64,000 bases of DNA, from contig CM000207.1 in NCBI GenBank assembly GCA_000002445.1, positions 1,600,001 to 1,664,000 of the forward strand, given 5' to 3'. Each line of letters opens with the position of its first letter. Position 1 is the first letter of the stretch. The notes beneath the pieces were generated by a model that saw nothing but the letters and a program-made list of their open reading frames with translations, was not told the origin of the DNA and ran no database searches. The position numbers were made by a program, and so were the translations under genes. This DNA comes from Trypanosoma brucei. Lineage: Eukaryota. Of this stretch, positions 19,755 through 51,354 are shown piece after piece.

Positions 19755-22022
19755 TCATTTCAGCAAAGGGTAGTTTGTGTAACTGACACCATCCTTCAGG
19801 ATTCTAGAAATTGTTAAAGCAATATACGACATCCAAAAAATCACAAAGAACAAAATCTCACCACGCATCCAATACCGTGGCACAAACAGCATCGAGAAAC
19901 TCACAAGGGTCGCTAGCACTGCAGCTGCCATACCACCAAGTACCATTCTGTTGAGCCCTGAAAAGTTACGGGAAAATGGACTCTCAAATTGAGTGTGGAA
20001 AAGAGCAGGATCATGCTGACACGTGAGTAGAGAAACGGCATCCTGTTTCTGTCCATCAAAGAAATTTTGTTGCCACCAGCGGCGCAGTGCGATTCGCACC
20101 ACATCAAACGTGGCCGGTCCCCATTCCCCAGTTAGTAGAAAGTCCACAAAATGGGGGTCGCTTCCAGCGTACAACCTGGAAAGTGAAATTCCCAGTTCAA
20201 CCCACATATGCTTACATCTCTCTACGCTGCAATGAAACTCACCATTCCCTCGCGCTCCGTCACTTCCATCATCCTCATCTTCATACTCATCCTCATCGTC
20301 ACTGAGGTTCATTTCTTCCCCATGCCCAAGTACATACCTAATCATCTGAGGAAGAATGTTAATAGCAATCATGGACTGAACAAGGTTTGTCCGATCCAAG
20401 CAATCCAAACAGTTCACCCGAACGTAATGTTTCTGCTGGTGGACAAGAACCAACTCGCAAGTCGCCCCGTCAGCATCAGCGGTGCTGGGAACAGATGGAG
20501 GCGATGACCCACTCGATGGAGACGGATGTCCTTCATTGCTAAACTTCCAAAAATCTACGAACTGCGATCCACCTTCGTTTTTCCTATTTAGCAGAGTATC
20601 AACTTCCATTCGCATTAAGTTGTAAGGCGCATTTTTAGCCCTCCGTTCCTTTACGTTGTATTTTGTATAATAAACGTCAACGGGCCTTGAGAGAGCGCCA
20701 TTCCCTTCACGAAGTTTTAATGCCGCTGCTTCGAACGCCTTTGAAATTGGCAACTCGGCTTTGCTAAGCGACGTGGTGTCAAGACAATGGATAGATGTCA
20801 TCCCATCGAATAAAGCCAAAAGGGCATTTAAATGCAAGACCAGTTCATCAACCCCTGACGATGGCGAAGATATGGTAATCGTGGGGATGAATGTTAAATT
20901 CGCTGGCTGACTCCAGCAACGAGGCACAGAACCACGAAGAATGGTAAAGGCTGCCACGCGCTGCTTTTCATTAGCGGCCTTATCCCCCTCGTTTCCCGAC
21001 GCTAAAGGAAAGACCCAAAGCGTTGATGCAGAAAAGTTCGCTGCAATCCCACTACCAGCATTGTCAAGCCCACGCCGATTGTATCGCGTACCCGCCCACC
21101 GGTAACTAAGGCGATTGATGAGCAACATCTGAACACCCTCCTCGGGGGAAGTAGTCGCCTCCACAATACCCCTAATAAACGCAGGAACGTACACGTGGTA
21201 ATCACAATTCAGCGAAGCTACAACCTCATCAAACGCACCAAGCAGAGGCGAATTCCACTGGAAAACCACCCGCTGCGATATTTGTCCCTCGGAAGAAATC
21301 GCTAAAGAAAAGGCGCCACCACCCTTCACGCTGCTGCCATTCAACGACGGCGTGAGTACCTCCTTCATACCCTTCACAACATCACCAGGTTCCAGGGTTA
21401 AGTTCGCAGTCGGTGAATAGTAAAAATAAGAAGCACCGCAATGTTGCTCCGACTGCGCACAAAAGCTATCGACAACCCTACAATACTCTAAAACCATTTC
21501 TTCCCTGGCATGGCTTTGTGAAGAACCCTGCGAAGCGCTTGCTTCATCTTTCTCGCCTGAACCACCATCACCACCGTCCCCACTCTTATTCACGGACAGG
21601 TCAGACGCTGTTTCCGGTAGTCGAAGCCACGACAGCTGCTTTACCGCAAACACGTCGTGGGTCTCCCCAATAGTTAATGTGGTAATACGTTCCCGTTCAG
21701 AAACATACAAAAGTATCGACGCAGAGCCAATGCGAAGAACACCAAATAAAGCATAACAGGGAATACAACGGACCGGTGTAAACTCTTCAAATCCAGAGGA
21801 GGAAGCATCGGACATAACTCCATCATCAACCACATCACAAACCGCCTTTTCAGAATCTTTGCTAACATGAGAAACGGCATCATCCGCAGCCACATTACTC
21901 GGCAACACGAAACATTGACGCTCCAAATTCCAAATAAGTCTGGGATAAGAATCATCATTAGGGACAAAAGAGGCAGATTCACCATCAATAACGATATTTC
22001 CAAAAAAATCCCCTACAGACAT
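19755..22022 (-). CDS. SAC1: Sac1-type phosphoinositide phosphatase (SAC domain) with C-terminal transmembrane anchor
   Basis: Catalytic CX5R(T/S) motif in VRVNCLDCLDRTNLVQS. Upstream block RLSYRWAGTRYNRRGLDNAGSGIAANF is characteristic of the SAC domain. Two hydrophobic helices lie at the C-terminus (MVLGGMAAAVLATLVSFSMLFV, ILFFVIFWMSYIALTI). Confidence 0.8.
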   Translation of the reverse strand: MSVGDFFGNIVIDGESASFVPNDDSYPRLIWNLERQCFVLPSNVAADDAVSHVSKDSEKAVCDVVDDGVMSDASSSGFEEFTPVRCIPCYALFGVLRIGSASILLYVSERERITTLTIGETHDVFAVKQLSWLRLPETASDLSVNKSGDGGDGGSGEKDEASASQGSSQSHAREEMVLEYCRVVDSFCAQSEQHCGASYFYYSPTANLTLEPGDVVKGMKEVLTPSLNGSSVKGGGAFSLAISSEGQISQRVVFQWNSPLLGAFDEVVASLNCDYHVYVPAFIRGIVEATTSPEEGVQMLLINRLSYRWAGTRYNRRGLDNAGSGIAANFSASTLWVFPLASGNEGDKAANEKQRVAAFTILRGSVPRCWSQPANLTFIPTITISSPSSGVDELVLHLNALLALFDGMTSIHCLDTTSLSKAELPISKAFEAAALKLREGNGALSRPVDVYYTKYNVKERRAKNAPYNLMRMEVDTLLNRKNEGGSQFVDFWKFSNEGHPSPSSGSSPPSVPSTADADGATCELVLVHQQKHYVRVNCLDCLDRTNLVQSMIAINILPQMIRYVLGHGEEMNLSDDEDEYEDEDDGSDGARGNGEFHCSVERCKHMWVELGISLSRLYAGSDPHFVDFLLTGEWGPATFDVVRIALRRWWQQNFFDGQKQDAVSLLTCQHDPALFHTQFESPFSRNFSGLNRMVLGGMAAAVLATLVSFSMLFVPRYWMRGEILFFVIFWMSYIALTISRILKDGVSYTNYPLLK

Positions 22023-22320: not shown

Positions 22321-24584
22321 AACACCCAAACACTTACTCAGAAGTCAAACAGACAAAATTAACTGATGTCAGCATCAAATAAATTCAGCTGAAACACGGA
22401 TTTGACAGACTCATCATTGACACAAAACAAGGTAAGAGCAACACCACCAAACAGTTCAGAGCAGGAATAAGAAGGAGGGCGGCATGTACATATGTGTGTG
22501 GGGTAATGTTGGTGTAATGGGGAAAAGGTGAGAAAGTTACCGTACGCCTCGGACGCAGGACGCACGCGGCTGGAATGTTGTGCGGCGCCCCAGAAACTAT
22601 CGTAACACTCGTGCTCAATCCATGTTCGGGTGTGTGTCATAAGACCGTCGTAAGTGGTTTATCGTCATGGGCAAAGTACAAGGTGTATCCGCAGTGACCA
22701 AAGAGACAATGCAGAATCTGGCAAAGAGAAAGGGCGAAAGCCAAGCAATAAGGGTGGTTTCAAATGTAAAACAAGGAAAAAGGGAGGGGAGGGGGGTGAC
22801 AGTAACCACACACATGGTATGATAACGTGCCACGACGAAACCAAACACCATCAGCCGGGGAAAGAAGAATATTCTTTAAATGGGTTATTGTCATTCAAAT
22901 ACACTCAGAGACTCCAGTCCATTGATGTCATCAAGTAGCGCGTTTACGACAGGTTAGGTGTACCGCAAAGCAACTCTCGGAGCGCACCAAGATGGCCTAC
23001 GGCATGCAATCACAAAACGGCCGCTCCATGGCTAAAGCCCCTTTTTCATTTTTGTTGTCCATAAAAACACTGAAGGGAGAAAACAGAGGAAGGAGAAGGT
23101 AACAATATCAAACAAGAGAAGAGTGTGCACTAACCAATAACCTCCGTTATAATTCTCGGACCACGTGAGTGTGCAAACAAGGACACAGAAATGTTAGCCC
23201 AAGACACAACTCCAATGTGGGCCTTCCCCTACGGTTACTGCCCCAACACATAATTGTAATTATAATAATAACCATAATCATAATTATACACCTGACGTCA
23301 AGTGAAAAAAACTCGGCGCGTCAGAAACAATATTAGCGTCACGGGTTCTGTTCAGATGTTGCTGTTAATTTGTTATATTAGGTATTCATCACACGCACCT
23401 ACTCGCCGAACTGCTAACCCCACACGTCAGCTCGGAGCGAAAGATAGAGTTCACAGTTGCATCGACATAGTGTGTTTCCGTTCCGCCTACGCGGTATCGG
23501 AAGCTCTTTCATCAGTGGCGGGGAACGACGGATGGGGGATAAACACTTAACAGAGGGGAAAATGTGCATGAAATAGGTAATACAATAAGAGAAGGGGGAA
23601 GTAAACAGGGAATCACGGAAGTAAGGTTCAGTGCAGGTCTGTGTTATGGTGTCCTCACAGGTTCTCGGTGCAATTTGAACATATTGTACATCGTCACCTA
23701 CTACATTCCCTCTCGACTACCCCGCCACTCACAACATTATACTGCCGCCCACATTAGCCATTCCAAACTCACTGCGGTAATGTATCCTCGTGTGTGCTTG
23801 CGTGTATATGTGTATATATGTGTATGTGTATGGAGTCGCGCCCAAGTGCCCGAGGTTGAGTACCTGAAGGACACGATAGCCATCAGACCCGAAAGGTGAT
23901 TTGTGTTGTATAGATCCCTCATGAATATGACGTCGGAACATGTTTGGACGCTCAACTAGTTTCCATCATCGGCCACACACATACACAAACATACAAGCAC
24001 ACACACACACACACACACTCACATATATATATATATATATACATACACGACAAACCTCCGCACACCCAAACACTTACTCAGAAGTCAAACAGACAAAATT
24101 AACTGATGTCAGCATCAAATAAATTCAGCTGAAACACGGATTTGACAGACTCATCATTGACACAAAACAAGGTAAGAGCAACACCACCAAACAGTTCAGA
24201 GCAGGAATAAGAAGGAGGGCGGCATGTACATATGTGTGTGGGGTAATGTTGGTGTAATGGGGAAAAGGTGAGAAAGTTACCGTACGCCTCGGACGCAGGA
24301 CGCACGCGGCTGGAATGTTGTGCGGCGCCCCAGAAACTATCGTAACACTCGTGCTCAATCCATGTTCGGGTGTGTGTCATAAGACCGTCGTAAGTGGTTT
24401 ATCGTCATGGGCAAAGTACAAGGTGTATCCGCAGTGACCAAAGAGACAATGCAGAATCTGGCAAAGAGAAAGGGCGAAAGCCAAGCAATAAGGGTGGTTT
24501 CAAATGTAAAACAAGGAAAAAGGGAGGGGAGGGGGGTGACAGTAACCACACACATGGTATGATAACGTGCCACGACGAAACCAA

Positions 24585-24680
24585 ACACCATCAGCCGGGG
24601 AAAGAAGAATATTCTTTAAATGGGTTATTGTCATTCAAATACACTCAGAGACTCCAGTCCATTGATGTCATCAAGTAGCG
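24585..24680 (-). ncRNA. Weaker box C/D snoRNA-like element 'B' (representative, unit 2). Same position in all 8 copies, at unit offset ~522-617.
   Basis: Minus-strand reading: UUGAUGA-(19 nt)-CUGA-(10 nt)-AUGA-(35 nt)-CUGA. C, D', degenerate C' and D in canonical order, ~82 nt C-to-D. No clear terminal stem. Confidence 0.3.
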
Positions 24681-25054
24681 CGTTTACGACAGGTTAGGTG
24701 TACCGCAAAGCAACTCTCGGAGCGCACCAAGATGGCCTACGGCATGCAATCACAAAACGGCCGCTCCATGGCTAAAGCCCCTTTTTCATTTTTGTTGTCC
24801 ATAAAAACACTGAAGGGAGAAAACAGAGGAAGGAGAAGGTAACAATATCAAACAAGAGAAGAGTGTGCACTAACCAATAACCTCCGTTATAATTCTCGGA
24901 CCACGTGAGTGTGCAAACAAGGACACAGAAATGTTAGCCCAAGACACAACTCCAATGTGGGCCTTCCCCTACGGTTACTGCCCCAACACATAATTGTAAT
25001 TATAATAATAACCATAATCATAATTATACACCTGACGTCAAGTGAAAAAAACTC

Positions 25055-25139
25055 GGCGCGTCAGAAACAATATTAGCGTCACGGGTTCTGTTCAGATGTT
25101 GCTGTTAATTTGTTATATTAGGTATTCATCACACGCACC
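25055..25139 (-). ncRNA. Box C/D snoRNA-like element 'D', representative copy in unit 2. The same element is present in units 1-7 at 23315-23399, 25055-25139, 26807-26891, 28553-28637, 30293-30377, 32033-32117, 33771-33855.
   Basis: Minus-strand reading: 5'-GGUGCG-U-GUGAUGA-(30 nt)-CUGA-(27 nt)-CUGA-CGCGCC-3'. Canonical C box (RUGAUGA), D' and D boxes (CUGA). The 6-bp terminal stem GGUGCG/CGCGCC (one G.U) flanks the C and D boxes directly. Size ~85 nt. Not verified against rRNA targets. Confidence 0.5.
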
Positions 25140-25157
25140 TACTCGCCGAACTGCTAA

Positions 25158-25263
25158 CCCCACACGTCAGCTCGGAGCGAAAGATAGAGTTCACAGTTGC
25201 ATCGACATAGTGTGTTTCCGTTCCGCCTACGCGGTATCGGAAGCTCTTTCATCAGTGGCGGGG
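25158..25263 (-). ncRNA. Box C/D snoRNA-like element 'C', representative copy in unit 2. The same element is present in units 1-7 at 23418-23523, 25158-25263, 26910-27015, 28656-28761, 30396-30501, 32136-32241, 33874-33979.
   Basis: Minus-strand reading: 5'-CCCCGC-CAC-UGAUGA-(~85 nt)-CUGA-CGU-GUGGGG-3'. C box UGAUGA and D box CUGA are bracketed by a 6-bp terminal stem CCCCGC/GUGGGG (one G.U). Lies immediately upstream (in the minus sense) of element D. Confidence 0.45.
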
Positions 25264-28200
25264 AACGACGGATGGGGGATAAACACTTAACAGAGGGGAA
25301 AATGTGCATGGAATAGGTAATACAATAAGAGAAGGGGGAAGTAAACAGGGAATCACGGAAGTAAGGTTCAGTGCAGGTCTGTGTTATGGTGTCCTCACAG
25401 GTTCTCGGTGCAATTTGAACATATTGTACATCGTCACCCACTACATTCCCTCTCGACTACCCCGCCACTCACAACATTATACTGCCGCCCACATTAGCCA
25501 TTCCAAACTCACTGCGGTAATGTATCCTCGTGTGTGCTTGCGTGTATATGTGTATATATGTGTATATATGTGTATGTGTATGGAGTCGCGCCCAAGTGCC
25601 CGAGGTTGAGTACCTGAAGGACACGATAGCCATCAGACCCGAAAGGTGATTTGTGTTGTATAGATCCCTCATGAATATGACGTCGGAACATGTTTGGACG
25701 CTCAACTAGTTTCCATCATCGGCCACACACATACACAAACATACAAGCACACACACATACACACACTCACATATATATATATATATATATATACATACAC
25801 GACAAACCTCCGCACACCCAAACACTTACTCAGAAGTCAAACAGACAAAATTAACTGATGTCAGCATCAAATAAATTCAGCTGAAACACGGATTTGACAG
25901 ACTCATCATTGACACAAAACAAGGTAAGAGCAACACCACCAAACAGTTCAGAGCAGGAATAAGAAGGAGGGCGGCATGTACATATGTGTGTGGGGTAATC
26001 TTGGTGTAATGGGGAAAAGGTGAGAAAGTTACCGTACGCCTCGGACGCAGGACGCACGCGGCTGGAATGTTGTGCGGCGCCCCAGAAACTATCGTAACAC
26101 TCGTGCTCAATCCATGTTCGGGTGTGTGTCATAAGACCGTCGTAAGTGGTTTATCGTCATGGGCAAAGTACAAGGTGTATCCGCAGTGACCAAAGAGACA
26201 ATGCAGAATCTGGCAAAGAGAAAGGGCGAAAGCCAAGCAATAAGGGTGGTTTCAAATGTAAAACAAGGAAAAAGGGAGGGGAGGGGGGTGACAGTAACCA
26301 CACACATGGTATGATAACGTGCCACGACGAAACCAAACACCATCAGCCGGGGAAAGAAGAATATTCTTTAAATGGGTTATTGTCATTCAAATACACTCAG
26401 AGACTCCAGTCCATTGATGTCATCAAGTAGCGCGTTTACGACAGGTTAGGTGTACCGCAAAGCAACTCTCGGAGCGCACCAAGATGGCCTACGGCATGCA
26501 ATCACAAAACGGCCGCTCCATGGCTAAAGCCCCTTTTTCATTTTTGTTGTCCATAAAAACACTGAAGGGAGAAAACAGAGGAAGGAGAAGGTAACAATAT
26601 CAAACAAGAGAAGAGTGTGCACTAACCAATAACCTCCGTTATAATTCTCGGACCACGTGAGTGTGCAAACAAGGACACAGAAATGTTAGCCCAAGACACA
26701 ACTCCAATGTGGGCCTTCCCCTACGGTTACTGCCCCAACACATAATTGTAATTATAATAATAACCATAATCATAATTATACACCTGACGTCAAGTGAAAA
26801 AAACTCGGCGCGTCAGAAACAATATTAGCGTCACGGGTTCTGTTCAGATGTTGCTGTTAATTTGTTATATTAGGTATTCATCACACGCACCTACTCGCCG
26901 AACTGCTAACCCCACACGTCAGCTCGGAGCGAAAGATAGAGTTCACAGTTGCATCGACATAGTGTGTTTCCGTTCCGCCTACGCGGTATCGGAAGCTCTT
27001 TCATCAGTGGCGGGGAACGACGGATGGGGGATAAACACTTAACAGAGGGGAAAATGTGCATGGAATAGGTAATACAATAAGAAAAGGGGGAAGTAAACAG
27101 GGAATCACGGAAGTAAGGTTCAGTGCAGGTCTGTGTTATGGTGTCCTCACAGGTTCTCGGTGCAATTTGAACATATTGTACATCGTCACCCACTACATTC
27201 CCTCTCGACTACCCCGCCACTCACAACATTATACTGCCGCCCACATTAGCCATTCCAAACTCACTGCGGTAATGTATCCTCGTGTGTGCTTGCGTGTATA
27301 TGTGTATATATGTGTATGTGTATGGAGTCGCGCCCAAGTGCCCGAGGTTGAGTACCTGAAGGACACGATAGCCATCAGACCCGAAAGGTGATTTGTGTTG
27401 TATAGATCCCTCATGAATATGACGTCGGAACATGTTTGGACGCTCAACTAGTTTCCATCATCGGCCACACACATACACAAACATACAAGCACACACACAC
27501 ACACACACACTCACATATATATATATATATATACATATATATACACGACAAACCTCCGCACACCCAAACACTTACTCAGAAGTCAAACAGACAAAATTAA
27601 CTGATGTCAGCATCAAATAAATTCAGCTGAAACACGGATTTGACAGACTCATCATTGACACAAAACAAGGTAAGAGCAACACCACCAAACAGTTCAGAGC
27701 AGGAATAAGAAGGAGGGCGGCATGTACATATGTGTGTGGGGTAATCTTGGTGTAATGGGGAAAAGGTGAGAAAGTTACCGTACGCCTCGGACGCAGGACG
27801 CACGCGGCTGGAATGTTGTGCGGCGCCCCAGAAACTATCGTAACACTCGTGCTCAATCCATGTTCGGGTGTGTGTCATAAGACCGTCGTAAGTGGTTTAT
27901 CGTCATGGGCAAAGTACAAGGTGTATCCGCAGTGACCAAAGAGACAATGCAGAATCTGGCAAAGAGAAAGGGCGAAAGCCAAGCAATAAGGGTGGTTTCA
28001 AATGTAAAACAAGGAAAAAGGGAGGGGAGGGGGGTGACAGTAACCACACACATGGTATGATAACGTGCCACGACGAAACCAAACACCATCAGCCGGGGAA
28101 AGAAGAATATTCTTTAAATGGGTTATTGTCATTCAAATACACTCAGAGACTCCAGTCCATTGATGTCATCAAGTAGCGCGTTTACGACAGGTTAGGTGTA

Positions 28201-31200
28201 CCGCAAAGCAACTCTCGGAGCGCACCAAGATGGCCTACGGCATGCAATCACAAAACGGCCGCTCCATGGCTAAAGCCCCTTTTTCATTTTTGTTGTCCAT
28301 AAAAACACTGAAGGGAGAAAACAGAGGAAGGAGAAGGTAACAATATCAAACAAGAGAAGAGTGTGCACTAACCAATAACCTCCGTTATAATTCTCGGACC
28401 ACGTGAGTGTGCAAACAAGGACACAGAAATGTTAGCCCAAGACACAACTCCGATGTGGGCCTTCCCCTACGGTTACTGCCCCAACACATAATTGTAATTA
28501 TAATAATAACCATAATCATAATTATACACCTGACGTCAAGTGAAAAAAACTCGGCGCGTCAGAAACAATATTAGCGTCACGGGTTCTGTTCAGATGTTGC
28601 TGTTAATTTGTTATATTAGGTATTCATCACACGCACCTACTCGCCGAACTGCTAACCCCACACGTCAGCTCGGAGCGAAAGATAGAGTTCACAGTTGCAT
28701 CGACATAGTGTGTTTCCGTTCCGCCTACGCGGTATCGGAAGCTCTTTCATCAGTGGCGGGGAACGACGGATGGGGGATAAACACTTAACAGAGGGGAAAA
28801 TGTGCATGGAATAGGTAATACAATAAGAGAAGGGGGAAGTAAACAGGGAATCACGGAAGTAAGGTTCAGTGCAGGTCTGTGTTATGGTGTCCTCACAGGT
28901 TCTCGGTGCAATTTGAACATATTGTACATCGTCACCCACTACATTCCCTCTCGACTACCCCGCCACTCACAACATTATACTGCCGCCCACATTAGCCATT
29001 CCAAACTCACTGCGGTAATGTATCCTCGTGTGTGCTTGCGTGTATATGTGTATATATGTGTATGTGTATGGAGTCGCGCCCAAGTGCCCGAGGTTGAGTA
29101 CCTGAAGGACACGATAGCCATCAGACCCGAAAGGTGATTTGTGTTGTATAGATCCCTCATGAATATGACGTCGGAACATGTTTGGACGCTCAACTAGTTT
29201 CCATCATCGGCCACACACATACACAAACATACAAGCACACACACACACACACACACTCACATATATATATATATATATACATACACGACAAACCTCCGCA
29301 CACCCAAACACTTACTCAGAAGTCAAACAGACAAAATTAACTGATGTCAGCATCAAATAAATTCAGCTGAAACACGGATTTGACAGACTCATCATTGACA
29401 CAAAACAAGGTAAGAGCAACACCACCAAACAGTTCAGAGCAGGAATAAGAAGGAGGGCGGCATGTACATATGTGTGTGGGGTAATCTTGGTGTAATGGGG
29501 AAAAGGTGAGAAAGTTACCGTACGCCTCGGACGCAGGACGCACGCGGCTGGAATGTTGTGCGGCGCCCCAGAAACTATCGTAACACTCGTGCTCAATCCA
29601 TGTTCGGGTGTGTGTCATAAGACCGTCGTAAGTGGTTTATCGTCATGGGCAAAGTACAAGGTGTATCCGCAGTGACCAAAGAGACAATGCAGAATCTGGC
29701 AAAGAGAAAGGGCGAAAGCCAAGCAATAAGGGTGGTTTCAAATGTAAAACAAGGAAAAAGGGAGGGGAGGGGGGTGACAGTAACCACACACATGGTATGA
29801 TAACGTGCCACGACGAAACCAAACACCATCAGCCGGGGAAAGAAGAATATTCTTTAAATGGGTTATTGTCATTCAAATACACTCAGAGACTCCAGTCCAT
29901 TGATGTCATCAAGTAGCGCGTTTACGACAGGTTAGGTGTACCGCAAAGCAACTCTCGGAGCGCACCAAGATGGCCTACGGCATGCAATCACAAAACGGCC
30001 GCTCCATGGCTAAAGCCCCTTTTTCATTTTTGTTGTCCATAAAAACACTGAAGGGAGAAAACAGAGGAAGGAGAAGGTAACAATATCAAACAAGAGAAGA
30101 GTGTGCACTAACCAATAACCTCCGTTATAATTCTCGGACCACGTGAGTGTGCAAACAAGGACACAGAAATGTTAGCCCAAGACACAACTCCAATGTGGGC
30201 CTTCCCCTACGGTTACTGCCCCAACACATAATTGTAATTATAATAATAACCATAATCATAATTATACACCTGACGTCAAGTGAAAAAAACTCGGCGCGTC
30301 AGAAACAATATTAGCGTCACGGGTTCTGTTCAGATGTTGCTGTTAATTTGTTATATTAGGTATTCATCACACGCACCTACTCGCCGAACTGCTAACCCCA
30401 CACGTCAGCTCGGAGCGAAAGATAGAGTTCACAGTTGCATCGACATAGTGTGTTTCCGTTCCGCCTACGCGGTATCGGAAGCTCTTTCATCAGTGGCGGG
30501 GAACGATGGATGGGGGATAAACACTTAACAGAGGGGAAAATGTGCATGGAATAGGTAATACAATAAGAGAAGGGGGAAGTAAACAGGGAATCACGGAAGT
30601 AAGGTTCAGTGCAGGTCTGTGTTATGGTGTCCTCACAGGTTCTCGGTGCAATTTGAACATATTGTACATCGTCACCCACTACATTCCCTCTCGACTACCC
30701 CGCCACTCACAACATTATACTGCCGCCCACATTAGCCATTCCAAACTCACTGCGGTAATGTATCCTCGTGTGTGCTTGCGTGTATATGTGTATATATGTG
30801 TATGTGTATGGAGTCGCGCCCAAGTGCCCGAGGTTGAGTACCTGAAGGACACGATAGCCATCAGACCCGAAAGGTGATTTGTGTTGTATAGATCCCTCAT
30901 GAATATGACGTCGGAACATGTTTGGACGCTCAACTAGTTTCCATCATCGGCCACACACATACACAAACATACAAGCACACACACACACACACACTCACAT
31001 ATATATATATATATATATACATACACGACAAACCTCCGCACACCCAAACACTTACTCAGAAGTCAAACAGACAAAATTAACTGATGTCAGCATCAAATAA
31101 ATTCAGCTGAAACACGGATTTGACAGACTCATCATTGACACAAAACAAGGTAAGAGCAACACCACCAAACAGTTCAGAGCAGGAATAAGAAGGAGGGCGG

Positions 31201-34200
31201 CATGTACATATGTGTGTGGGGTAATGTTGGTGTAATGGGGAAAAGGTGAGAAAGTTACCGTACGCCTCGGACGCAGGACGCACGCGGCTGGAATGTTGTG
31301 CGGCGCCCCAGAAACTATCGTAACACTCGTGCTCAATCCATGTTCGGGTGTGTGTCATAAGACCGTCGTAAGTGGTTTATCGTCATGGGCAAAGTACAAG
31401 GTGTATCCGCAGTGACCAAAGAGACAATGCAGAATCTGGCAAAGAGAAAGGGCGAAAGCCAAGCAATAAGGGTGGTTTCAAATGTAAAACAAGGAAAAAG
31501 GGAGGGGAGGGGGGTGACAGTAACCACACACATGGTATGATAACGTGCCACGACGAAACCAAACACCATCAGCCGGGGAAAGAAGAATATTCTTTAAATG
31601 GGTTATTGTCATTCAAATACACTCAGAGACTCCAGTCCATTGATGTCATCAAGTAGCGCGTTTACGACAGGTTAGGTGTACCGCAAAGCAACTCTCGGAG
31701 CGCACCAAGATGGCCTACGGCATGCAATCACAAAACGGCCGCTCCATGGCTAAAGCCCCTTTTTCATTTTTGTTGTCCATAAAAACACTGAAGGGAGAAA
31801 ACAGAGGAAGGAGAAGGTAACAATATCAAACAAGAGAAGAGTGTGCACAAACCAATAACCTCCGTTATAATTCTCGGACCACGTGAGTGTGCAAACAAGG
31901 ACACAGAAATGTTAGCCCAAGACACAACTCCAATGTGGGCCTTCCCCTACGGTTACTGCCCCAACACATAATTGTAATTATAATAATAACCATAATCATA
32001 ATTATACACCTGACGTCAAGTGAAAAAAACTCGGCGCGTCAGAAACAATATTAGCGTCACGGGTTCTGTTCAGATGTTGCTGTTAATTTGTTATATTAGG
32101 TATTCATCACACGCACCTACTCGCCGAACTGCTAACCCCACACGTCAGCTCGGAGCGAAAGATAGAGTTCACAGTTGCATCGACATAGTGTGTTTCCGTT
32201 CCGCCTACGCGGTATCGGAAGCTCTTTCATCAGTGGCGGGGAACGACGGATGGGGGATAAACACTTAACAGAGGGGAAAATGTGCATGGAATAGGTAATA
32301 CAATAAGAGAAGGGGGAAGTAAACAGGGAATCACGGAAGTAAGGTTCAGTGCAGGTCTGTGTTATGGTGTCCTCACAGGTTCTCGGTGCAATTTGAACAT
32401 ATTGTACATCGTCACCCACTACATTCCCTCTCGACTACCCCGCCACTCACAACATTATACTGCCGCCCACATTAGCCATTCCAAACTCACTGCGGTAATG
32501 TATCCTCGTGTGTGCTTGCGTGTATATGTGTATATATGTGTATGTGTATGGAGTCGCGCCCAAGTGCCCGAGGTTGAGTACCTGAAGGACACGATAGCCA
32601 TCAGACCCGAAAGGTGATTTGTGTTGTATAGATCCCTCATGAATATGACGTCGGAACATGTTTGGACGCTCAACTAGTTTCCATCATCGGCCACACACAT
32701 ACACAAACATACAAGCACACACACATACACACACTCACATATATATATATATATATACATACACGACAAACCTCCGCACACCCAAACACTTACTCAGAAG
32801 TCAAACAGACAAAATTAACTGATGTCAGCATCAAATAAATTCAGCTGAAACACGGATTTGACAGACTCATCATTGACACAAAACAAGGTAAGAGCAACAC
32901 CACCAAACAGTTCAGAGCAGGAATAAGAAGGAGGGCGGCATGTACATATGTGTGTGGGGTAATGTTGGTGTAATGGGGAAAAGGTGAGAAAGTTACCGTA
33001 CGCCTCGGACGCAGGACGCACGCGGCTGGAATGTTGTGCGGCGCCCCAGAAACTATCGTAACACTCGTGCTCAATCCATGTTCGGGTGTGTGTCATAAGA
33101 CCGTCGTAAGTGGTTTATCGTCATGGGCAAAGTACAAGGTGTATCCGCAGTGACCAAAGAGACAATGCAGAATCTGGCAAAGAGAAAGGGCGAAAGCCAA
33201 GCAATAAGGGTGGTTTCAAATGTAAAACAAGGAAAAAGGGAGGGGAGGGGGGTGACAGTAACCACACACATGGTATGATAACGTGCCACGACGAAACCAA
33301 ACACCATCAGCCGGGGAAAGAAGAATATTCTTTAAATGGGTTATTGTCATTCAAATACACTCAGAGACTCCAGTCCATTGATGTCATCAAGTAGCGCGTT
33401 TACGACAGGTTAGGTGTACCGCAAAGCAACTCTCGGAGCGCACCAAGATGGCCTACGGCATGCAATCACAAAACGGCCGCTCCATGGCTAAAGCCCCTTT
33501 TTCATTTTTGTTGTCCATAAAAACACTGAAGGGAGAAAACAGAGGAAGGAGAAGGTAACAATATCAAACAAGAGAAGAGTGTGCACTAACCAATAACCTC
33601 CGTTATAATTCTCGGACCACGTGAGTGTGCAAACAAGGACACAGAAATGTTAGCCCAAGACACAACTCCAATGTGGGCCTTCCCCTACGGTTACTGCCCC
33701 AACACATAATTGTAATTATAATAATAACCATAATCATAATTATACACCTGACGTCAAGTGAAAAAAACTCGGCGCGTCAGAAACAATATTAGCGTCACGG
33801 GTTCTGTTCAGATGTTGCTGTTAATTTGTTATATTAGGTATTCATCACACGCACCTACTCGCCGAACTGCTAACCCCACACGTCAGCTCGGAGCGAAAGA
33901 TAGAGTTCACAGTTGCATCGACATAGTGTGTTTCCGTTCCGCCTACGCGGTATCGGAAGCTCTTTCATCAGTGGCGGGGAACGACGGATGGGGGATAAAC
34001 ACTTAACAGAGGGGAAAATGTGCATGAAATAGGTAATACAATAAGAGAAGGGGGAAGTAAACAGGGAATCACGGAAGTAAGGTTCAGTGCAGGTCTGTGT
34101 TATGGTGTCCTCACAGGTTCTCGGTGCAATTTGAACATATTGTACATCGTCACCCACTACATTCCCTCTCGACTACCCCGCCACTCACAACATTATACTG

Positions 34201-35985
34201 CCGCCCACATTAGCCATTCCAAACTCACTGCGGTAATGTATCCTCGTGTGTGCTTGCGTGTATATGTGTATATATGTGTATGTGTATGGAGTCGCGCCCA
34301 AGTGCCCGAGGTTGAGTACCTGAAGGACACGATAGCCATCAGACCCGAAAGGTGATTTGTGTTGTATAGATCCCTCATGAATATGACGTCGGAACATGTT
34401 TGGACGCTCAACTAGTTTCCATCATCGGCCACACACATACACAAACATACAAGCACACACACACACACACACACTCACATATATATATATATATATACAT
34501 ACACGACAAACCTCCGCACACCCAAACACTTACTCAGAAGTCAAACAGACAAAATTAACTGATGTCAGCATCAAATAAATTCAGCTGAAACACGGATTTG
34601 ACAGACTCATCATTGACACAAAACAAGGTAAGAGCAACACCACCAAACAGTTCAGAGCAGGAATAAGAAGGAGGGCGGCATGTACATATGTGTGTGGGGT
34701 AATGTTGGTGTAATGGGGAAAAGGTGAGAAAGTTACCGTACGCCTCGGACGCAGGACGCACGCGGCTGGAATGTTGTGCGGCGCCCCAGAAACTATCGTA
34801 ACACTCGTGCTCAATCCATGTTCGGGTGTGTGTCATAAGACCGTCGTAAGTGGTTTATCGTCATGGGCAAAGTACAAGGTGTATCCGCAGTGACCAAAGA
34901 GACAATGCAGAATCTGGCAAAGAGAAAGGGCGAAAGCCAAGCAATAAGGGTGGTTTCAAATGTAAAACAAGGAAAAAGGGAGGGGGGGTGACAGCAACCA
35001 CACACATGGTATGATAACGTGCCACGACGAAACCAAACACCATCAGCCGGGGAAAGAAGAATATTCTTTAAATGGGTTATTGTCATTCAAATACACTCAG
35101 AGACTCCAGTCCATTGATGTCATCAAGTAGCGCGTTTACGACAGGTTAGGTGTACCGCAAAGCAACTCTCGGAGCGCACCAAGATGGCCTACGGCATGCA
35201 ATCACAAAACGGCCGCTCCATGGCTAAAGCCCCTTTTTCATTTTTGTTGTCCATAAAAACACTGAAGGGAGAAAACAGAGGAAGGAGAAGGTAACAATAT
35301 CAAACAAGAGAAGAGTGTGCACTAACCAATAACCTCCGTTATAATTCTCGGACCACGTGAGTGTGCAAACAAGGACACAGAAATGTTAGCCCAAGACACA
35401 ACTCCAATGTGTCGCATTTTTTTTCGTAATATAGTTTTTGAAAGTTTATTCAAATTTTTTGGAAGAAGGCTGAGTTGTTGCAGGTTCTTTACCTATGATA
35501 GGTCATATTGCTGATTATATTTTTTGTTCAATTGTTTTTTGTGTATAGAATGATTTCTCCTTTTTTATTTTTTTTCACCAAGTGGCTTGATAATTTTGGT
35601 GGAACCAACTGTTTTTTTTTTTTTCGCATGATATATTGTTAATAAGTTGAAACTCAAAAGTAAATGAGTAGGGTAACCATTATTTTGTGATAACTGCACG
35701 TAGCTTCGCTATAGTTGAAGCATCGATGTGCCCTTTTTCATTACTTTTTTTTTTACGTTTCTTGCATTGTTTAGCAATTGAGTATCGATTTTGTGTCCGC
35801 TTCCGATATTACTTTGGCAGGGTCAGTGATGTGGTTTAACAAAAAGGAAAAAATCAGCTGAATGGTGTTGTTTACTTGTTTGATGCCATTACCACTTGTT
35901 TTTTATTTTCGCTGTTGCATCATATCGCAGCTGTTCTCGCTGCCGTTTGATTATCACTCTCTTGATGTAGTTGGTAGTAACGTTT

Positions 35986-36381
35986 TCACATCCTGTAATC
36001 TCTTCTGTTTTCGTTTGATGCGTTGTTGTTTGTGTCGTAACTGTTTGAATAGTATGCGTCTGTCCCATATTCCCTGTTTTGGTTGCTGGAAAAGTCATAA
36101 GTTGGGTATTGCGATGTTTGCTGATTGTTTGATGGGTTATTATTTGCCGCTTCCTCCTTTTTGTGTTCGTTGGACGTGTTTCCATTGTCATTAGATTCTG
36201 TTCTGCCTTTAGCGCTTTGGGCCACCCCCGCAGCTTGCCGACGGGCGACAGACCTCTTATGAATCAAACAACCGACTATCCACAGAGCGGTCAGACCGAT
36301 ATAAACGGCGATTGTGATGAGGTATTTATACCACTCCCCCCCTTCCTTCTTCTCCTCTGGTTGTTGTTGTTGTTGTTCCAT
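35986..36381 (-). CDS. Small single-pass membrane protein with Q-rich N-terminus and N-rich C-terminal tail (131 aa), hypothetical
   Basis: ORF in the transcription-unit sense. TM helix WYKYLITIAVYIGLTALWIVGCLI followed by a basic stop-transfer (HKRSVARRQ). Low-complexity N/Q-rich tail, so coding status is not certain. Confidence 0.45.
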   Translation of the reverse strand: MEQQQQQPEEKKEGGEWYKYLITIAVYIGLTALWIVGCLIHKRSVARRQAAGVAQSAKGRTESNDNGNTSNEHKKEEAANNNPSNNQQTSQYPTYDFSSNQNREYGTDAYYSNSYDTNNNASNENRRDYRM

Positions 36382-51100: not shown

Positions 51101-51134
<34 letters not shown>

Positions 51135-51140
51135 GTGTAT

Positions 51141-51170
<30 letters not shown>
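51095..51170. repeat. (TA)n microsatellite, interrupted (~70 bp)
   Basis: tagatatatatatatatatatatatatatatacacgtgtatagatatatatatatatatatatatatatatgtat. Confidence 0.95.
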
Positions 51171-51176
<6 letters not shown>

Positions 51177-51354
51177 ACAAGTACCTTGTTCTCTTAACTT
51201 TATTTACTTTCTTCTTCCCCTCTCCCTTTGAAGGTCTATCAACTAAGTGGCACTGGATACCTTTTGTTTGCTCTTCCTTACTTTTGTGTTTTTTTTGTTA
51301 GCTACTATATTTATTTTTATTTTTGTTATATTTTTTTAGAGGCTGGACAAAGAC

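What the first reader, a model, noticed from the sequence alone, without database searches (positions are those of the whole stretch)
22323..35411. Sub-family SNP structure and microsatellite length variation among array copies
Copies are near-identical but not uniform.
- Units 3, 4 and 5 share a G->C substitution (aatgttggtg -> aatcttggtg at unit offset ~195) absent from units 1, 2, 6, 7 and 8.
- Units 1 and 8 (the two ends) share gcatgAaatagg versus gcatgGaatagg in all internal units.
- Private SNPs occur in unit 1 (cacctac vs cacccac), unit 4 (agaaaagg vs agagaagg), unit 5 (tccgatg), and in the unit-5 and unit-6 sequence at 30505 and ~31849 (aacgatgg; cacaaacc). Unit 8 has a 4-bp deletion in a G-run.
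- Unit length varies (1738-1752 bp) only through the internal (TGTATATATG)n, (CA)n and (TA)n tracts near the unit 3' end.
This pattern, a block of adjacent copies sharing a variant with the end copies the most divergent, is the classic signature of unequal crossing-over / gene conversion homogenising a tandem array.
Basis: seen in the sequence. Interest (0 to 1): 0.5.

Follow-up and report, generated by a model that had tools for sequence, protein, structure and literature searches.

The report
Known trypanosome snoRNA gene array, copy variants
The repeat is the already described TB9Cs2 small-nucleolar-RNA gene cluster of Trypanosoma brucei-group parasites, present as 7.5 almost identical tandem copies; the few differences between copies are real and fit ordinary repeat homogenisation, but their layout does not prove it.

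Summary
The array spans 22322-35411. It has seven full units (1738-1752 bp) plus a truncated eighth of 894 bp. Every quoted variant string exists, but three are assigned to the wrong unit and two variants were missed.

The array is the published T. brucei TB9Cs2 snoRNA cluster on the minus strand. Each unit has nine conserved blocks: seven C/D snoRNAs, TB9Cs2H1 (Rfam RF01554) and an H2-like hairpin. It sits inside a window whose long ORFs are all on the minus strand. Eight published TB9Cs2C3/C5 primers match exactly, seven times each.

- T. cruzi has a tandem array with the same snoRNA blocks upstream of the same gene, but only those blocks align between species.
- The "private" haplotype of unit 8 (uninterrupted G-run, C at 34995) is the form seen in T. 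equiperdum OVI and in another isolate's collapsed unit, so units 1-7 carry a strain-specific homogenised haplotype.

Differences do not rise with distance along the array (Mantel r -0.13, p 0.74). The most similar pair is units 1 and 7.

This is known biology and of low interest.

The parts
22322..35411 (-). TB9Cs2 snoRNA gene array: seven full units plus one truncated unit, holding 68 snoRNA gene copies
22322..24061 (-). Unit 1 (1740 bp). It is the last unit transcribed. It carries A at 23571 (shared with unit 7) and a private T at 23699.
24062..25813 (-). Unit 2 (1752 bp). It has one extra TATATGTGTA repeat at 25545-25554, a (CA)n tract interrupted by T at 25758 (shared with unit 6), and (TA)11.
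25814..27559 (-). Unit 3 (1746 bp). It has C at 26000 (shared with units 4 and 5), a private A at 27083 and a longer TA tail.
27560..29299 (-). Unit 4 (1740 bp). It has C at 27746 and a private G at 28452, which lies inside TB9Cs2H1 (U10>C in the RNA).
29300..31039 (-). Unit 5 (1740 bp). It has C at 29486 and T at 30507. That T is the majority state in another isolate's collapsed unit (L005). Microsatellites are (CA)9 and (TA)10.
31040..32777 (-). Unit 6 (1738 bp). It has a private A at 31849 and a (CA)n tract interrupted by T at 32726 (shared with unit 2).
32778..34517 (-). Unit 7 (1740 bp). It has A at 34027 (shared with unit 1) and differs from unit 1 at a single position.
34518..35411 (-). 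Unit 8, truncated to 894 bp and the first unit transcribed. Its G-run is short and uninterrupted (4 bp fewer, after 34982) and it has C at 34995. Its H1 copy lacks the first 4 nt.
23877..23975 (-). C/D snoRNA gene with C box AUGAUGG, D box CUGA and a 6-bp terminal stem. It begins with the published TB9Cs2C3 sense primer. Seven copies, at unit offset +1555.
23625..23699 (-). C/D snoRNA gene, conserved in T. cruzi, ending in D box CUGA. The published 'TB9Cs2C3 antisense' primer lies at its 3' end. The unit-1 variant at 23699 is at its 5' edge.
23424..23519 (-). TB9Cs2C5 C/D snoRNA gene, delimited by the published primers for nt 1-20 and 76-96. Seven copies.
23316..23397 (-). C/D snoRNA gene with C box GUGAUGA and CUGA at both D' and D. 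Seven copies.
   Evidence: (weak SNORD96 hit)
23154..23223 (-). TB9Cs2H1, a single-hairpin H/ACA-like snoRNA with an AGA box. Eight copies; the Rfam scores are 86.8 bits for six copies, 83.9 for unit 4 and 70.5 for unit 8.
22975..23041 (-). Conserved block ending in ...CCGAGA. It is a candidate second H/ACA-like snoRNA (TB9Cs2H2?). Its structure was not confirmed by folding.
22846..22939 (-). C/D snoRNA gene with C box UUGAUGA and CUGA at both D' and D. Eight copies.
22546..22670 (-). The best-conserved block (84% identity to T. cruzi). It looks like a C/D snoRNA, with C box AUGACGA, a D-like CCGA and a GCC/GGC terminal stem. It may be the abundant TB9Cs2C1, but that assignment is inferred.
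22335..22422 (-). C/D snoRNA gene with C box AUGAUGA and CUGA at both D' and D. Eight copies. The array ends 13 nt beyond its 3' end.
   Evidence: (weak SNORD126 hit)
23796..23830 (.). (TGTATATATG)-type tract in the spacer between the first two C/D genes. It gains one 10-bp repeat in unit 2.
23997..24050 (.). (CA)n-CTCAC-(AT)n microsatellite in the inter-unit spacer. It accounts for the remaining length variation.
19755..22022 (-). Flanking gene for a 755-aa Syja_N (SAC1/synaptojanin N-terminal) protein, immediately downstream of the array in the direction of transcription. It served as the synteny anchor to T. cruzi.
35986..36381 (-). Flanking 131-aa ORF upstream of the array. It is identical in T. 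equiperdum OVI.

Best explanation
What it is. The region is the TB9Cs2 small-nucleolar-RNA gene cluster of a Trypanosoma brucei-group (Trypanozoon) genome. It is reiterated head-to-tail 7.5 times on the minus strand, inside a stretch where all long ORFs are also on the minus strand.

What each unit encodes. Each 1.74-kb unit has nine blocks conserved with T. cruzi: seven C/D snoRNAs (including TB9Cs2C5, plus two genes bracketed by the published C3 primers), the H/ACA-like TB9Cs2H1, and an H2-like block.

How it works (from the literature, not tested here). Such clusters are transcribed polycistronically by RNA polymerase II, and the individual snoRNAs are cut out of the transcript. Tandem reiteration serves gene dosage (inference). 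C1, C3 and C5 are among the most abundant snoRNAs in T. brucei.

Why the copies are alike (inferred mechanism). The near-identity of the copies, spacers included, is maintained by recurrent unequal sister-chromatid or homologue exchange and/or gene conversion. New variants arise by point mutation and microsatellite slippage, mostly in spacers. They are either lost or spread to other units. The truncated right-edge unit exchanges least and retains an older haplotype.
For: Identity of the locus:
- Rfam RF01554 TB9Cs2H1 is found once per unit on the minus strand, above the gathering score.
- Eight published T. brucei primers for TB9Cs2C3 and TB9Cs2C5 match exactly, seven times each.
- The literature names C1-C7 and H1 for this cluster, and H2 in one paper.
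- C/D boxes with terminal stems were found for six genes.
- Nine blocks are conserved against T. cruzi.

Genomic context:
- All 15 ORFs of at least 250 aa in the window are on the minus strand.
- Polycistronic Pol II transcription of snoRNA clusters is stated in PMC3273796.
- C1, C5 and C3 rank 3rd, 5th and 7th in abundance in Table S2 of PMC6411936.

Homogenisation:
- Pairwise unit identity is 98.75-99.94% including spacers.
- T. cruzi has a roughly 1543-bp tandem array (97.6-99.3% identity between copies) holding TB9Cs2H1, upstream of the orthologous Syja_N gene. Only the snoRNA blocks align to it, at 71-84% identity.
- Units 1-7 share GGGAGGGGAGGGGGG plus T at the position of 34995. Unit 8 and a collapsed unit from another isolate (L005) have an uninterrupted G-run plus C. 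The right-edge unit of T. equiperdum OVI also has the C, but that contig ends inside the G-run, so its G-run form is not established. The left-edge OVI contig ends within an uninterrupted G-run.
- The 'private' T of unit 5 at 30507 is the majority state in L005.
- The array's right junction is identical in T. equiperdum OVI.
Against: - The SNP layout shows no adjacency effect (Mantel r -0.13, p 0.74), so nearest-neighbour spreading is not demonstrated.
- Only three sites are shared by more than one unit.
- Copy-number variation between strains could not be examined, because the public short-read assemblies either collapse the array to one unit or break inside it.
- The excess of variants in spacers is not significant: 2 of 9 variants fall in the 46% of the unit that is snoRNA-coding, binomial p 0.14.
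- Transcription and processing were not tested here.
- The names given to individual C/D genes other than C5 are inferred.
Confidence: 0.85

Rival explanations
1. The array arose by a single recent amplification, and no exchange has happened since. The differences between copies are simply mutations accumulated after one burst of duplication.
For: - Very few differences exist between units: 0-4 non-microsatellite differences per pair.
- Most variants are singletons.
- There is no distance-dependent similarity, which a star-like burst would also produce.
Against: - A tandem array with the same snoRNA set exists at the syntenic site in T. cruzi, so the tandem arrangement is old while the spacers are young.
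- The majority haplotype differs between closely related isolates that share the same array junctions (99.4% flank identity). This requires spread or replacement after the array existed.
- Variants shared by units 1 and 7, units 2 and 6, and units 3-5 need duplication or conversion after the mutation arose.
Confidence: 0.08
2. The variant pattern is partly an artefact of assembly or polishing. On this view the singleton substitutions and microsatellite lengths are sequencing errors, and the copy number and high uniformity reflect consensus polishing of a collapsed repeat.
For: - Six substitution variants have no outside confirmation: 26000/27746/29486, 23571/34027, 27083, 23699, 31849 and 28452. 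Look-ups of the variant ORFs found nothing.
- Microsatellite and G-run lengths are error-prone in long reads.
- Independent Illumina contigs break at the G-run.
Against: - The unit-8 haplotype and the T of unit 5 at 30507 recur in independent assemblies.
- Two variants occur in several units at exactly the same position.
- The unit-2 insertion is one exact 10-bp repeat, which is typical of slippage.
- The array junctions are identical in T. equiperdum OVI.
Confidence: 0.1
3. The sub-families are functional. On this view variant units are kept by selection because they make snoRNA isoforms with altered targets or processing.
For: - The unit-4 change puts C in place of U10 of TB9Cs2H1. That position is conserved in T. 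cruzi and in the Rfam consensus, and it is unpaired in the model, where the guide pocket lies.
- TB9Cs2H1 guides pseudouridine 518 in helix 69, and attempts to knock it out failed (PMC10662448).
Against: - Seven of nine non-microsatellite variants, and all the microsatellite variants, lie in spacers.
- The three shared variants are all in spacers.
- The H1 variant is in one copy out of eight.
- The variant at 23699 sits at the edge of a terminal stem, and both states can pair (inference).
Confidence: 0.03

Closest known systems
T. brucei snoRNA cluster TB9Cs2 (Liang et al. 2005, RNA 11:619; Michaeli et al. 2012, PMC3273796; Chikne et al. 2019, PMC6411936)
   Same: - It has the same TB9Cs2H1 sequence (Rfam RF01554, 86.8 bits).
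- Published TB9Cs2C3 and TB9Cs2C5 primers match exactly.
- C/D and H/ACA-like genes are interspersed and tandemly reiterated.
- All genes share the orientation of the surrounding protein-coding genes.
   Different: Nothing of substance differs. This assembly resolves 7.5 units and their copy-to-copy variants, which the papers I could read do not describe. The repeat number given in Figure 4 of PMC3273796 could not be read.
Syntenic TB9Cs2H1-containing array in T. cruzi (GCA_015033655.1, CM026627.1, locus L003)
   Same: - It lies upstream of the orthologous Syja_N gene.
- It holds the same nine conserved blocks in the same order.
- It is tandemly repeated, with 97.6-99.3% identity between copies.
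   Different: - The unit is about 1543 bp rather than about 1740 bp.
- The spacers cannot be aligned with the T. brucei-group spacers, and it has microsatellites of its own.
- The array is interrupted by about 1.4 kb that carries an Oxidored_FMN-like ORF.
Concerted evolution of tandem multigene arrays (rDNA, 5S, spliced-leader RNA and tubulin arrays of trypanosomatids)
   Same: - Spacers are uniform within the genome but diverge between species.
- Isolates differ in their majority variant.
- An edge copy keeps an older haplotype.
   Different: - The array is very small (7.5 units), so there are few informative sites.
- No measurable similarity-by-distance gradient was found.

Membership tests
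Trypanosomatid TB9Cs2 snoRNA cluster | Contains TB9Cs2H1 (Rfam RF01554) above the gathering score | tested here: met
   There are eight hits on the minus strand, one per unit, scoring 70.5-86.8 bits against a gathering score of 45.
Trypanosomatid TB9Cs2 snoRNA cluster | Contains the published TB9Cs2C5 and TB9Cs2C3 sequences | tested here: met
   All eight primers from Table S1 of PMC6411936 match exactly, seven times each, in the expected orientation.
Trypanosomatid TB9Cs2 snoRNA cluster | Interspersed C/D snoRNAs (C and D boxes, terminal stem) and single-hairpin H/ACA-like snoRNAs with an AGA box | tested here: met
   Six canonical C/D candidates were found, plus one with an AUGACGA/CCGA box pair. 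H1 ends in AGA. The H2-like block ends in GAGA, but its fold was not confirmed.
Trypanosomatid TB9Cs2 snoRNA cluster | Cluster tandemly reiterated | tested here: met
   Seven full units plus one truncated unit.
Trypanosomatid TB9Cs2 snoRNA cluster | Transcribed polycistronically by Pol II and processed into mature snoRNAs | not testable with these tools
   Only the orientation is consistent: all long ORFs and all snoRNA genes lie on the minus strand. Expression is reported in PMC3273796 and PMC6411936.
Concerted evolution by unequal exchange or gene conversion | Within-array identity, spacers included, far exceeds the identity to the orthologous array in another species | tested here: met
   Identity within the array is 98.75-99.94%. 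Against T. cruzi, only the snoRNA blocks align, at 71-84%.
Concerted evolution by unequal exchange or gene conversion | Variants fixed across copies in one lineage but not in a sister lineage | tested here: met
   The interrupted G-run plus T haplotype is present in units 1-7 of this genome. It is absent from the L005 collapsed unit. The right-edge OVI unit lacks the T, and the left-edge OVI unit lacks the interrupting A. L005 also differs from all the window units at alignment columns 4 and 1733. The comparison rests on one collapsed contig and two contig ends.
Concerted evolution by unequal exchange or gene conversion | Neighbouring units are more alike than distant units | tested here: not met
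   Mantel r = -0.13, exact p = 0.74. Mean differences are 2.17 for adjacent pairs against 2.48 for all pairs, p = 0.21. Units 1 and 7 are the closest pair.
Concerted evolution by unequal exchange or gene conversion | Edge units escape homogenisation | tested here: inconclusive
   Unit 8 keeps the haplotype that is common in other isolates. Units 1 and 7 share A at alignment column 1250, but its polarity is unknown. Unit 1 is no more divergent than units 3-5.
Concerted evolution by unequal exchange or gene conversion | Copy-number polymorphism between isolates | not testable with these tools
   The public assemblies that could be reached either break in the array (OVI) or collapse it to one 1765-bp contig (Logan).

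The most novel reading that the evidence does not exclude
The three shared variants form a nested pattern: units 1 and 7, then units 2 and 6, then units 3-5. Given the group sizes, a perfectly concentric order arises in 2 of 210 arrangements, but this was noticed after the fact. The right-edge unit is also a 'fossil' copy. Together these could mean that turnover in these small snoRNA arrays runs from the centre outwards. The unit order would then record the array's expansion history. The unit-4 TB9Cs2H1 copy, with U10>C in its guide pocket, could be an expressed isoform acting on helix 69.
Probability: 0.07. Interest if true: 0.3.

Novelty: already known. Interest (0 to 1): 0.1.

Why it matters
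It matters little beyond annotation. The result names the repeat (TB9Cs2). It gives coordinates for 68 snoRNA gene copies that ORF-based annotation would miss. It shows that the copy-to-copy differences are ordinary repeat-array polymorphism, lying mostly in spacers.

Two practical points follow:
- The published TB9Cs2C3 probe primers bracket two adjacent C/D genes and a length-variable tract.
- The essential helix-69 guide TB9Cs2H1 is present in eight copies, one truncated and one with a pocket substitution. That copy number may bear on the failed knock-out attempts reported in PMC10662448 (my inference).

Tried and rejected
- ORF analysis of the units found only short overlapping ORFs of 111 aa or fewer on both strands, so no protein gene is present.
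- No tRNAs were found.
- Weak Rfam hits to mir-297 and mir-4012 are artefacts of the TG/TA microsatellites. The weak SNORD96 and SNORD126 hits only flag C/D-like genes.
- I tried to obtain the arrays of other strains by exact-protein look-ups.
  - The two flanking proteins returned only T. equiperdum OVI contigs that break inside the array.
  - A third flanking protein was not on record.
  - The homologue search gave one Logan contig without any array, plus distant species.
- I used ORFs inside the array as probes for specific variants.
  - The consensus 111-aa ORF found four collapsed contigs.
  - The C-187 form, the A-1250 form and the H form of the 93-aa ORF were not on record. The polarity of those variants therefore stays unknown.
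- Liang et al. 2005 (PMC1370750) is not held, and PMC3273796 has no supplementary files held. The official gene order and repeat number could not be read.
- Folding of the H2-like block did not give a convincing H/ACA hairpin (z-score +0.38).
- An apparent alternation of T. cruzi unit sub-types turned out to be an artefact of ungapped comparison.
- I did not scan the metagenome or prokaryote collections, because they are not expected to hold trypanosome DNA.
Full report
**Checking the observation**

The repeat finder shows eight in-register copies starting at 22322, 24062, 25814, 27560, 29300, 31040, 32778 and 34518. Their spacings are 1740, 1752, 1746, 1740, 1740, 1738 and 1740 bp.

A MAFFT alignment of the units shows that the eighth copy is truncated. 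Homology to the other units ends exactly at 35411/35412, and the left edge is at 22322. The array is therefore seven full units plus one of 894 bp.

- gcatgAaatagg is in units 1 and 7. Unit 8 does not contain that segment.
- agaaaagg is in unit 3, not unit 4.
- tccgatg is in unit 4, not unit 5.

- A T>C change in unit 8 at 34995.
- The unit-4 change at 28452 lies in a gene.
- A C>T interruption of the (CA)n tract is shared by units 2 and 6.

**What the repeat is**

The units contain no long ORF. Rfam finds TB9Cs2H1 (RF01554), a trypanosomatid H/ACA-like snoRNA, once per unit on the minus strand and above the gathering score.

Table S1 of Chikne et al. 2019 lists primers for TB9Cs2C3 and TB9Cs2C5. 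All eight match the window exactly, seven times each, in minus-strand orientation. They place TB9Cs2C5 at 23519-23424 in unit 1.

The literature names C1-C7 and H1 for this cluster, and H2 in one paper. C1, C5 and C3 are among the ten most abundant snoRNAs in T. brucei. C1, C3 and C5 act in the trypanosome-specific processing of large-subunit rRNA. H1 guides pseudouridine 518 in helix 69, and attempts to knock it out failed.

The flanking Syja_N protein is identical to that of T. equiperdum OVI, and 7 kb of flank is 99.4% identical. The window is therefore from a T. brucei-group (Trypanozoon) genome.

All 15 ORFs of at least 250 aa in the window are on the minus strand. The array thus has the same orientation as the surrounding genes. 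Published work says such clusters are transcribed polycistronically by Pol II and then processed. I did not test that.

**Anatomy of one unit**

The orthologous Syja_N gene of T. cruzi has a tandem array of about 1543 bp units upstream of it, carrying TB9Cs2H1.

Aligning a window unit with two T. cruzi units gives nine conserved blocks separated by spacers that do not align. In order of transcription, with unit-1 coordinates, they are:

| Coordinates (minus strand) | Element |
|---|---|
| 23975-23877 | C/D gene; starts with the published C3 sense primer |
| 23699-23625 | C/D gene; the published C3 antisense primer lies at its 3' end |
| 23519-23424 | TB9Cs2C5 |
| 23397-23316 | C/D gene |
| 23223-23154 | TB9Cs2H1 |
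| 23041-22975 | H2-like block ending in GAGA |
| 22939-22846 | C/D gene |
| 22670-22546 | Best-conserved block (AUGACGA ... CCGA with a GCC/GGC stem); possibly C1 |
| 22422-22335 | C/D gene |

A box scan found C and D boxes for six of these genes.

The first four genes occur seven times and the last five occur eight times. That makes 68 gene copies in 13.09 kb.

The array boundary at 35411 removes the first four nucleotides of the first transcribed H1 copy. That copy scores 70.5 bits and loses its basal stem in the predicted fold.

**Where the variants fall**

Nine non-microsatellite variants were found. Seven lie in spacers. One is U10>C in the H1 copy of unit 4. That position is conserved in T. 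cruzi and in the Rfam consensus and is unpaired in the model. One lies at the 5' edge of the second C/D gene, in unit 1.

snoRNA-coding sequence makes up 46% of a unit, so the deficit of variants there is only a trend (binomial p 0.14). All microsatellite variation is in spacers.

**Is the layout a signature of homogenisation?**

Taken by itself, it is not.
- Only three sites are shared by more than one unit: G>C in units 3-5, A in units 1 and 7, and the (CA)n interruption in units 2 and 6.
- Three contiguous carriers among eight units has probability 0.11.
- A Mantel test of differences against array distance gives r = -0.13, exact p = 0.74.
- Adjacent pairs are not significantly more alike than other pairs (p 0.21).
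- The closest pair is units 1 and 7, 10.4 kb apart, with a single difference.
- Unit 1 is no more divergent from the consensus than units 3-5.

The nested arrangement (1/7, 2/6, 3-5) is curious. It was noticed after the fact, and it rests on three sites, one of which is inside a microsatellite.

**Better evidence for homogenisation**

1. Spacers within the array are about as uniform as the genes (98.75-99.94% pairwise identity). Both this genome and T. cruzi have a tandem array at the same place, yet only the snoRNA blocks align between them. The tandem arrangement is therefore old and the spacers are young.
2. A collapsed 1765-bp unit from another isolate (Logan ERR7929162, L005) and the two T. 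equiperdum OVI contig ends were compared with the window units.
   - The array junctions are the same in OVI.
   - Unit 8's supposedly private haplotype (uninterrupted G-run plus C at 34995) is the form in L005. The OVI right-edge unit has the same C, although that contig ends inside the G-run. The OVI left-edge contig ends within an uninterrupted G-run. Units 1-7 of this genome therefore share a different, strain-specific haplotype, and the truncated edge unit did not receive it.
   - Unit 5's private T at 30507 is the majority state in L005.
   - L005 differs from all the window units at two further positions.

   These results also show that at least some of the variants are real polymorphisms rather than assembly errors.

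**Rivals**

- A single recent amplification without later exchange is hard to reconcile with the old syntenic array and with the between-isolate replacement of the majority haplotype.
- Assembly error may account for some singletons and microsatellite lengths, which have no outside confirmation. It cannot account for the variants that recur elsewhere or in several units.
- Functional sub-families are unlikely, because the shared variants are all in spacers.

**Verdict**

This is the known TB9Cs2 snoRNA cluster, behaving as small tandem arrays are expected to behave.
- Novelty: already known.
- Interest: low.

Noticed in passing
window 23625-23978 (and the same offsets in units 2-7): The published Northern-probe primers named TB9Cs2C3 (PMC6411936, Table S1) start in one C/D gene (23978) and end in the next (23625). 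Together they span about 354 nt, including the length-variable TGTATATATG tract. A probe made with this primer pair would detect two snoRNAs.
   Followed up: partly
L003 1299-2725 (T. cruzi CM026627.1): The T. cruzi snoRNA array is interrupted by about 1.4 kb of non-repeat sequence. That stretch carries a called 309-aa ORF with an Oxidored_FMN (old-yellow-enzyme-like) Pfam hit. The array resumes on both sides and runs off the left end of the locus.
   Followed up: no
window 22782-22796 and 34978-34988; ends of L001 and L002: Both T. equiperdum OVI contigs that reach the array end inside the same G-run (GGGAGGGG...). The run's length differs between unit 8 (G7), L005 (G9) and units 1-7 (G4-A-G6). 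The tract is both polymorphic and a breakpoint for short-read assembly.
   Followed up: partly
window 35346-35415: The array boundary falls four nucleotides inside the first transcribed TB9Cs2H1 copy (GCGA in place of GGCC). The identical junction is present in T. equiperdum OVI. This damaged edge copy is therefore stable across the group.
   Followed up: partly
window 1-64000: All 15 ORFs of at least 250 aa are on the minus strand, and cumulative GC skew falls steadily across the window. This is consistent with one long trypanosomatid polycistronic transcription unit with no strand switch. There are also several AT/TA microsatellites, for example (AT)37 at 51103-51177.
   Followed up: no
window units 1-7, alignment columns 187, 1250 and 1697: The shared variants are arranged concentrically: units 1 and 7, units 2 and 6, and units 3-5. 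Direct-order block duplication cannot produce a mirrored order. No simple history was found.
   Followed up: partly
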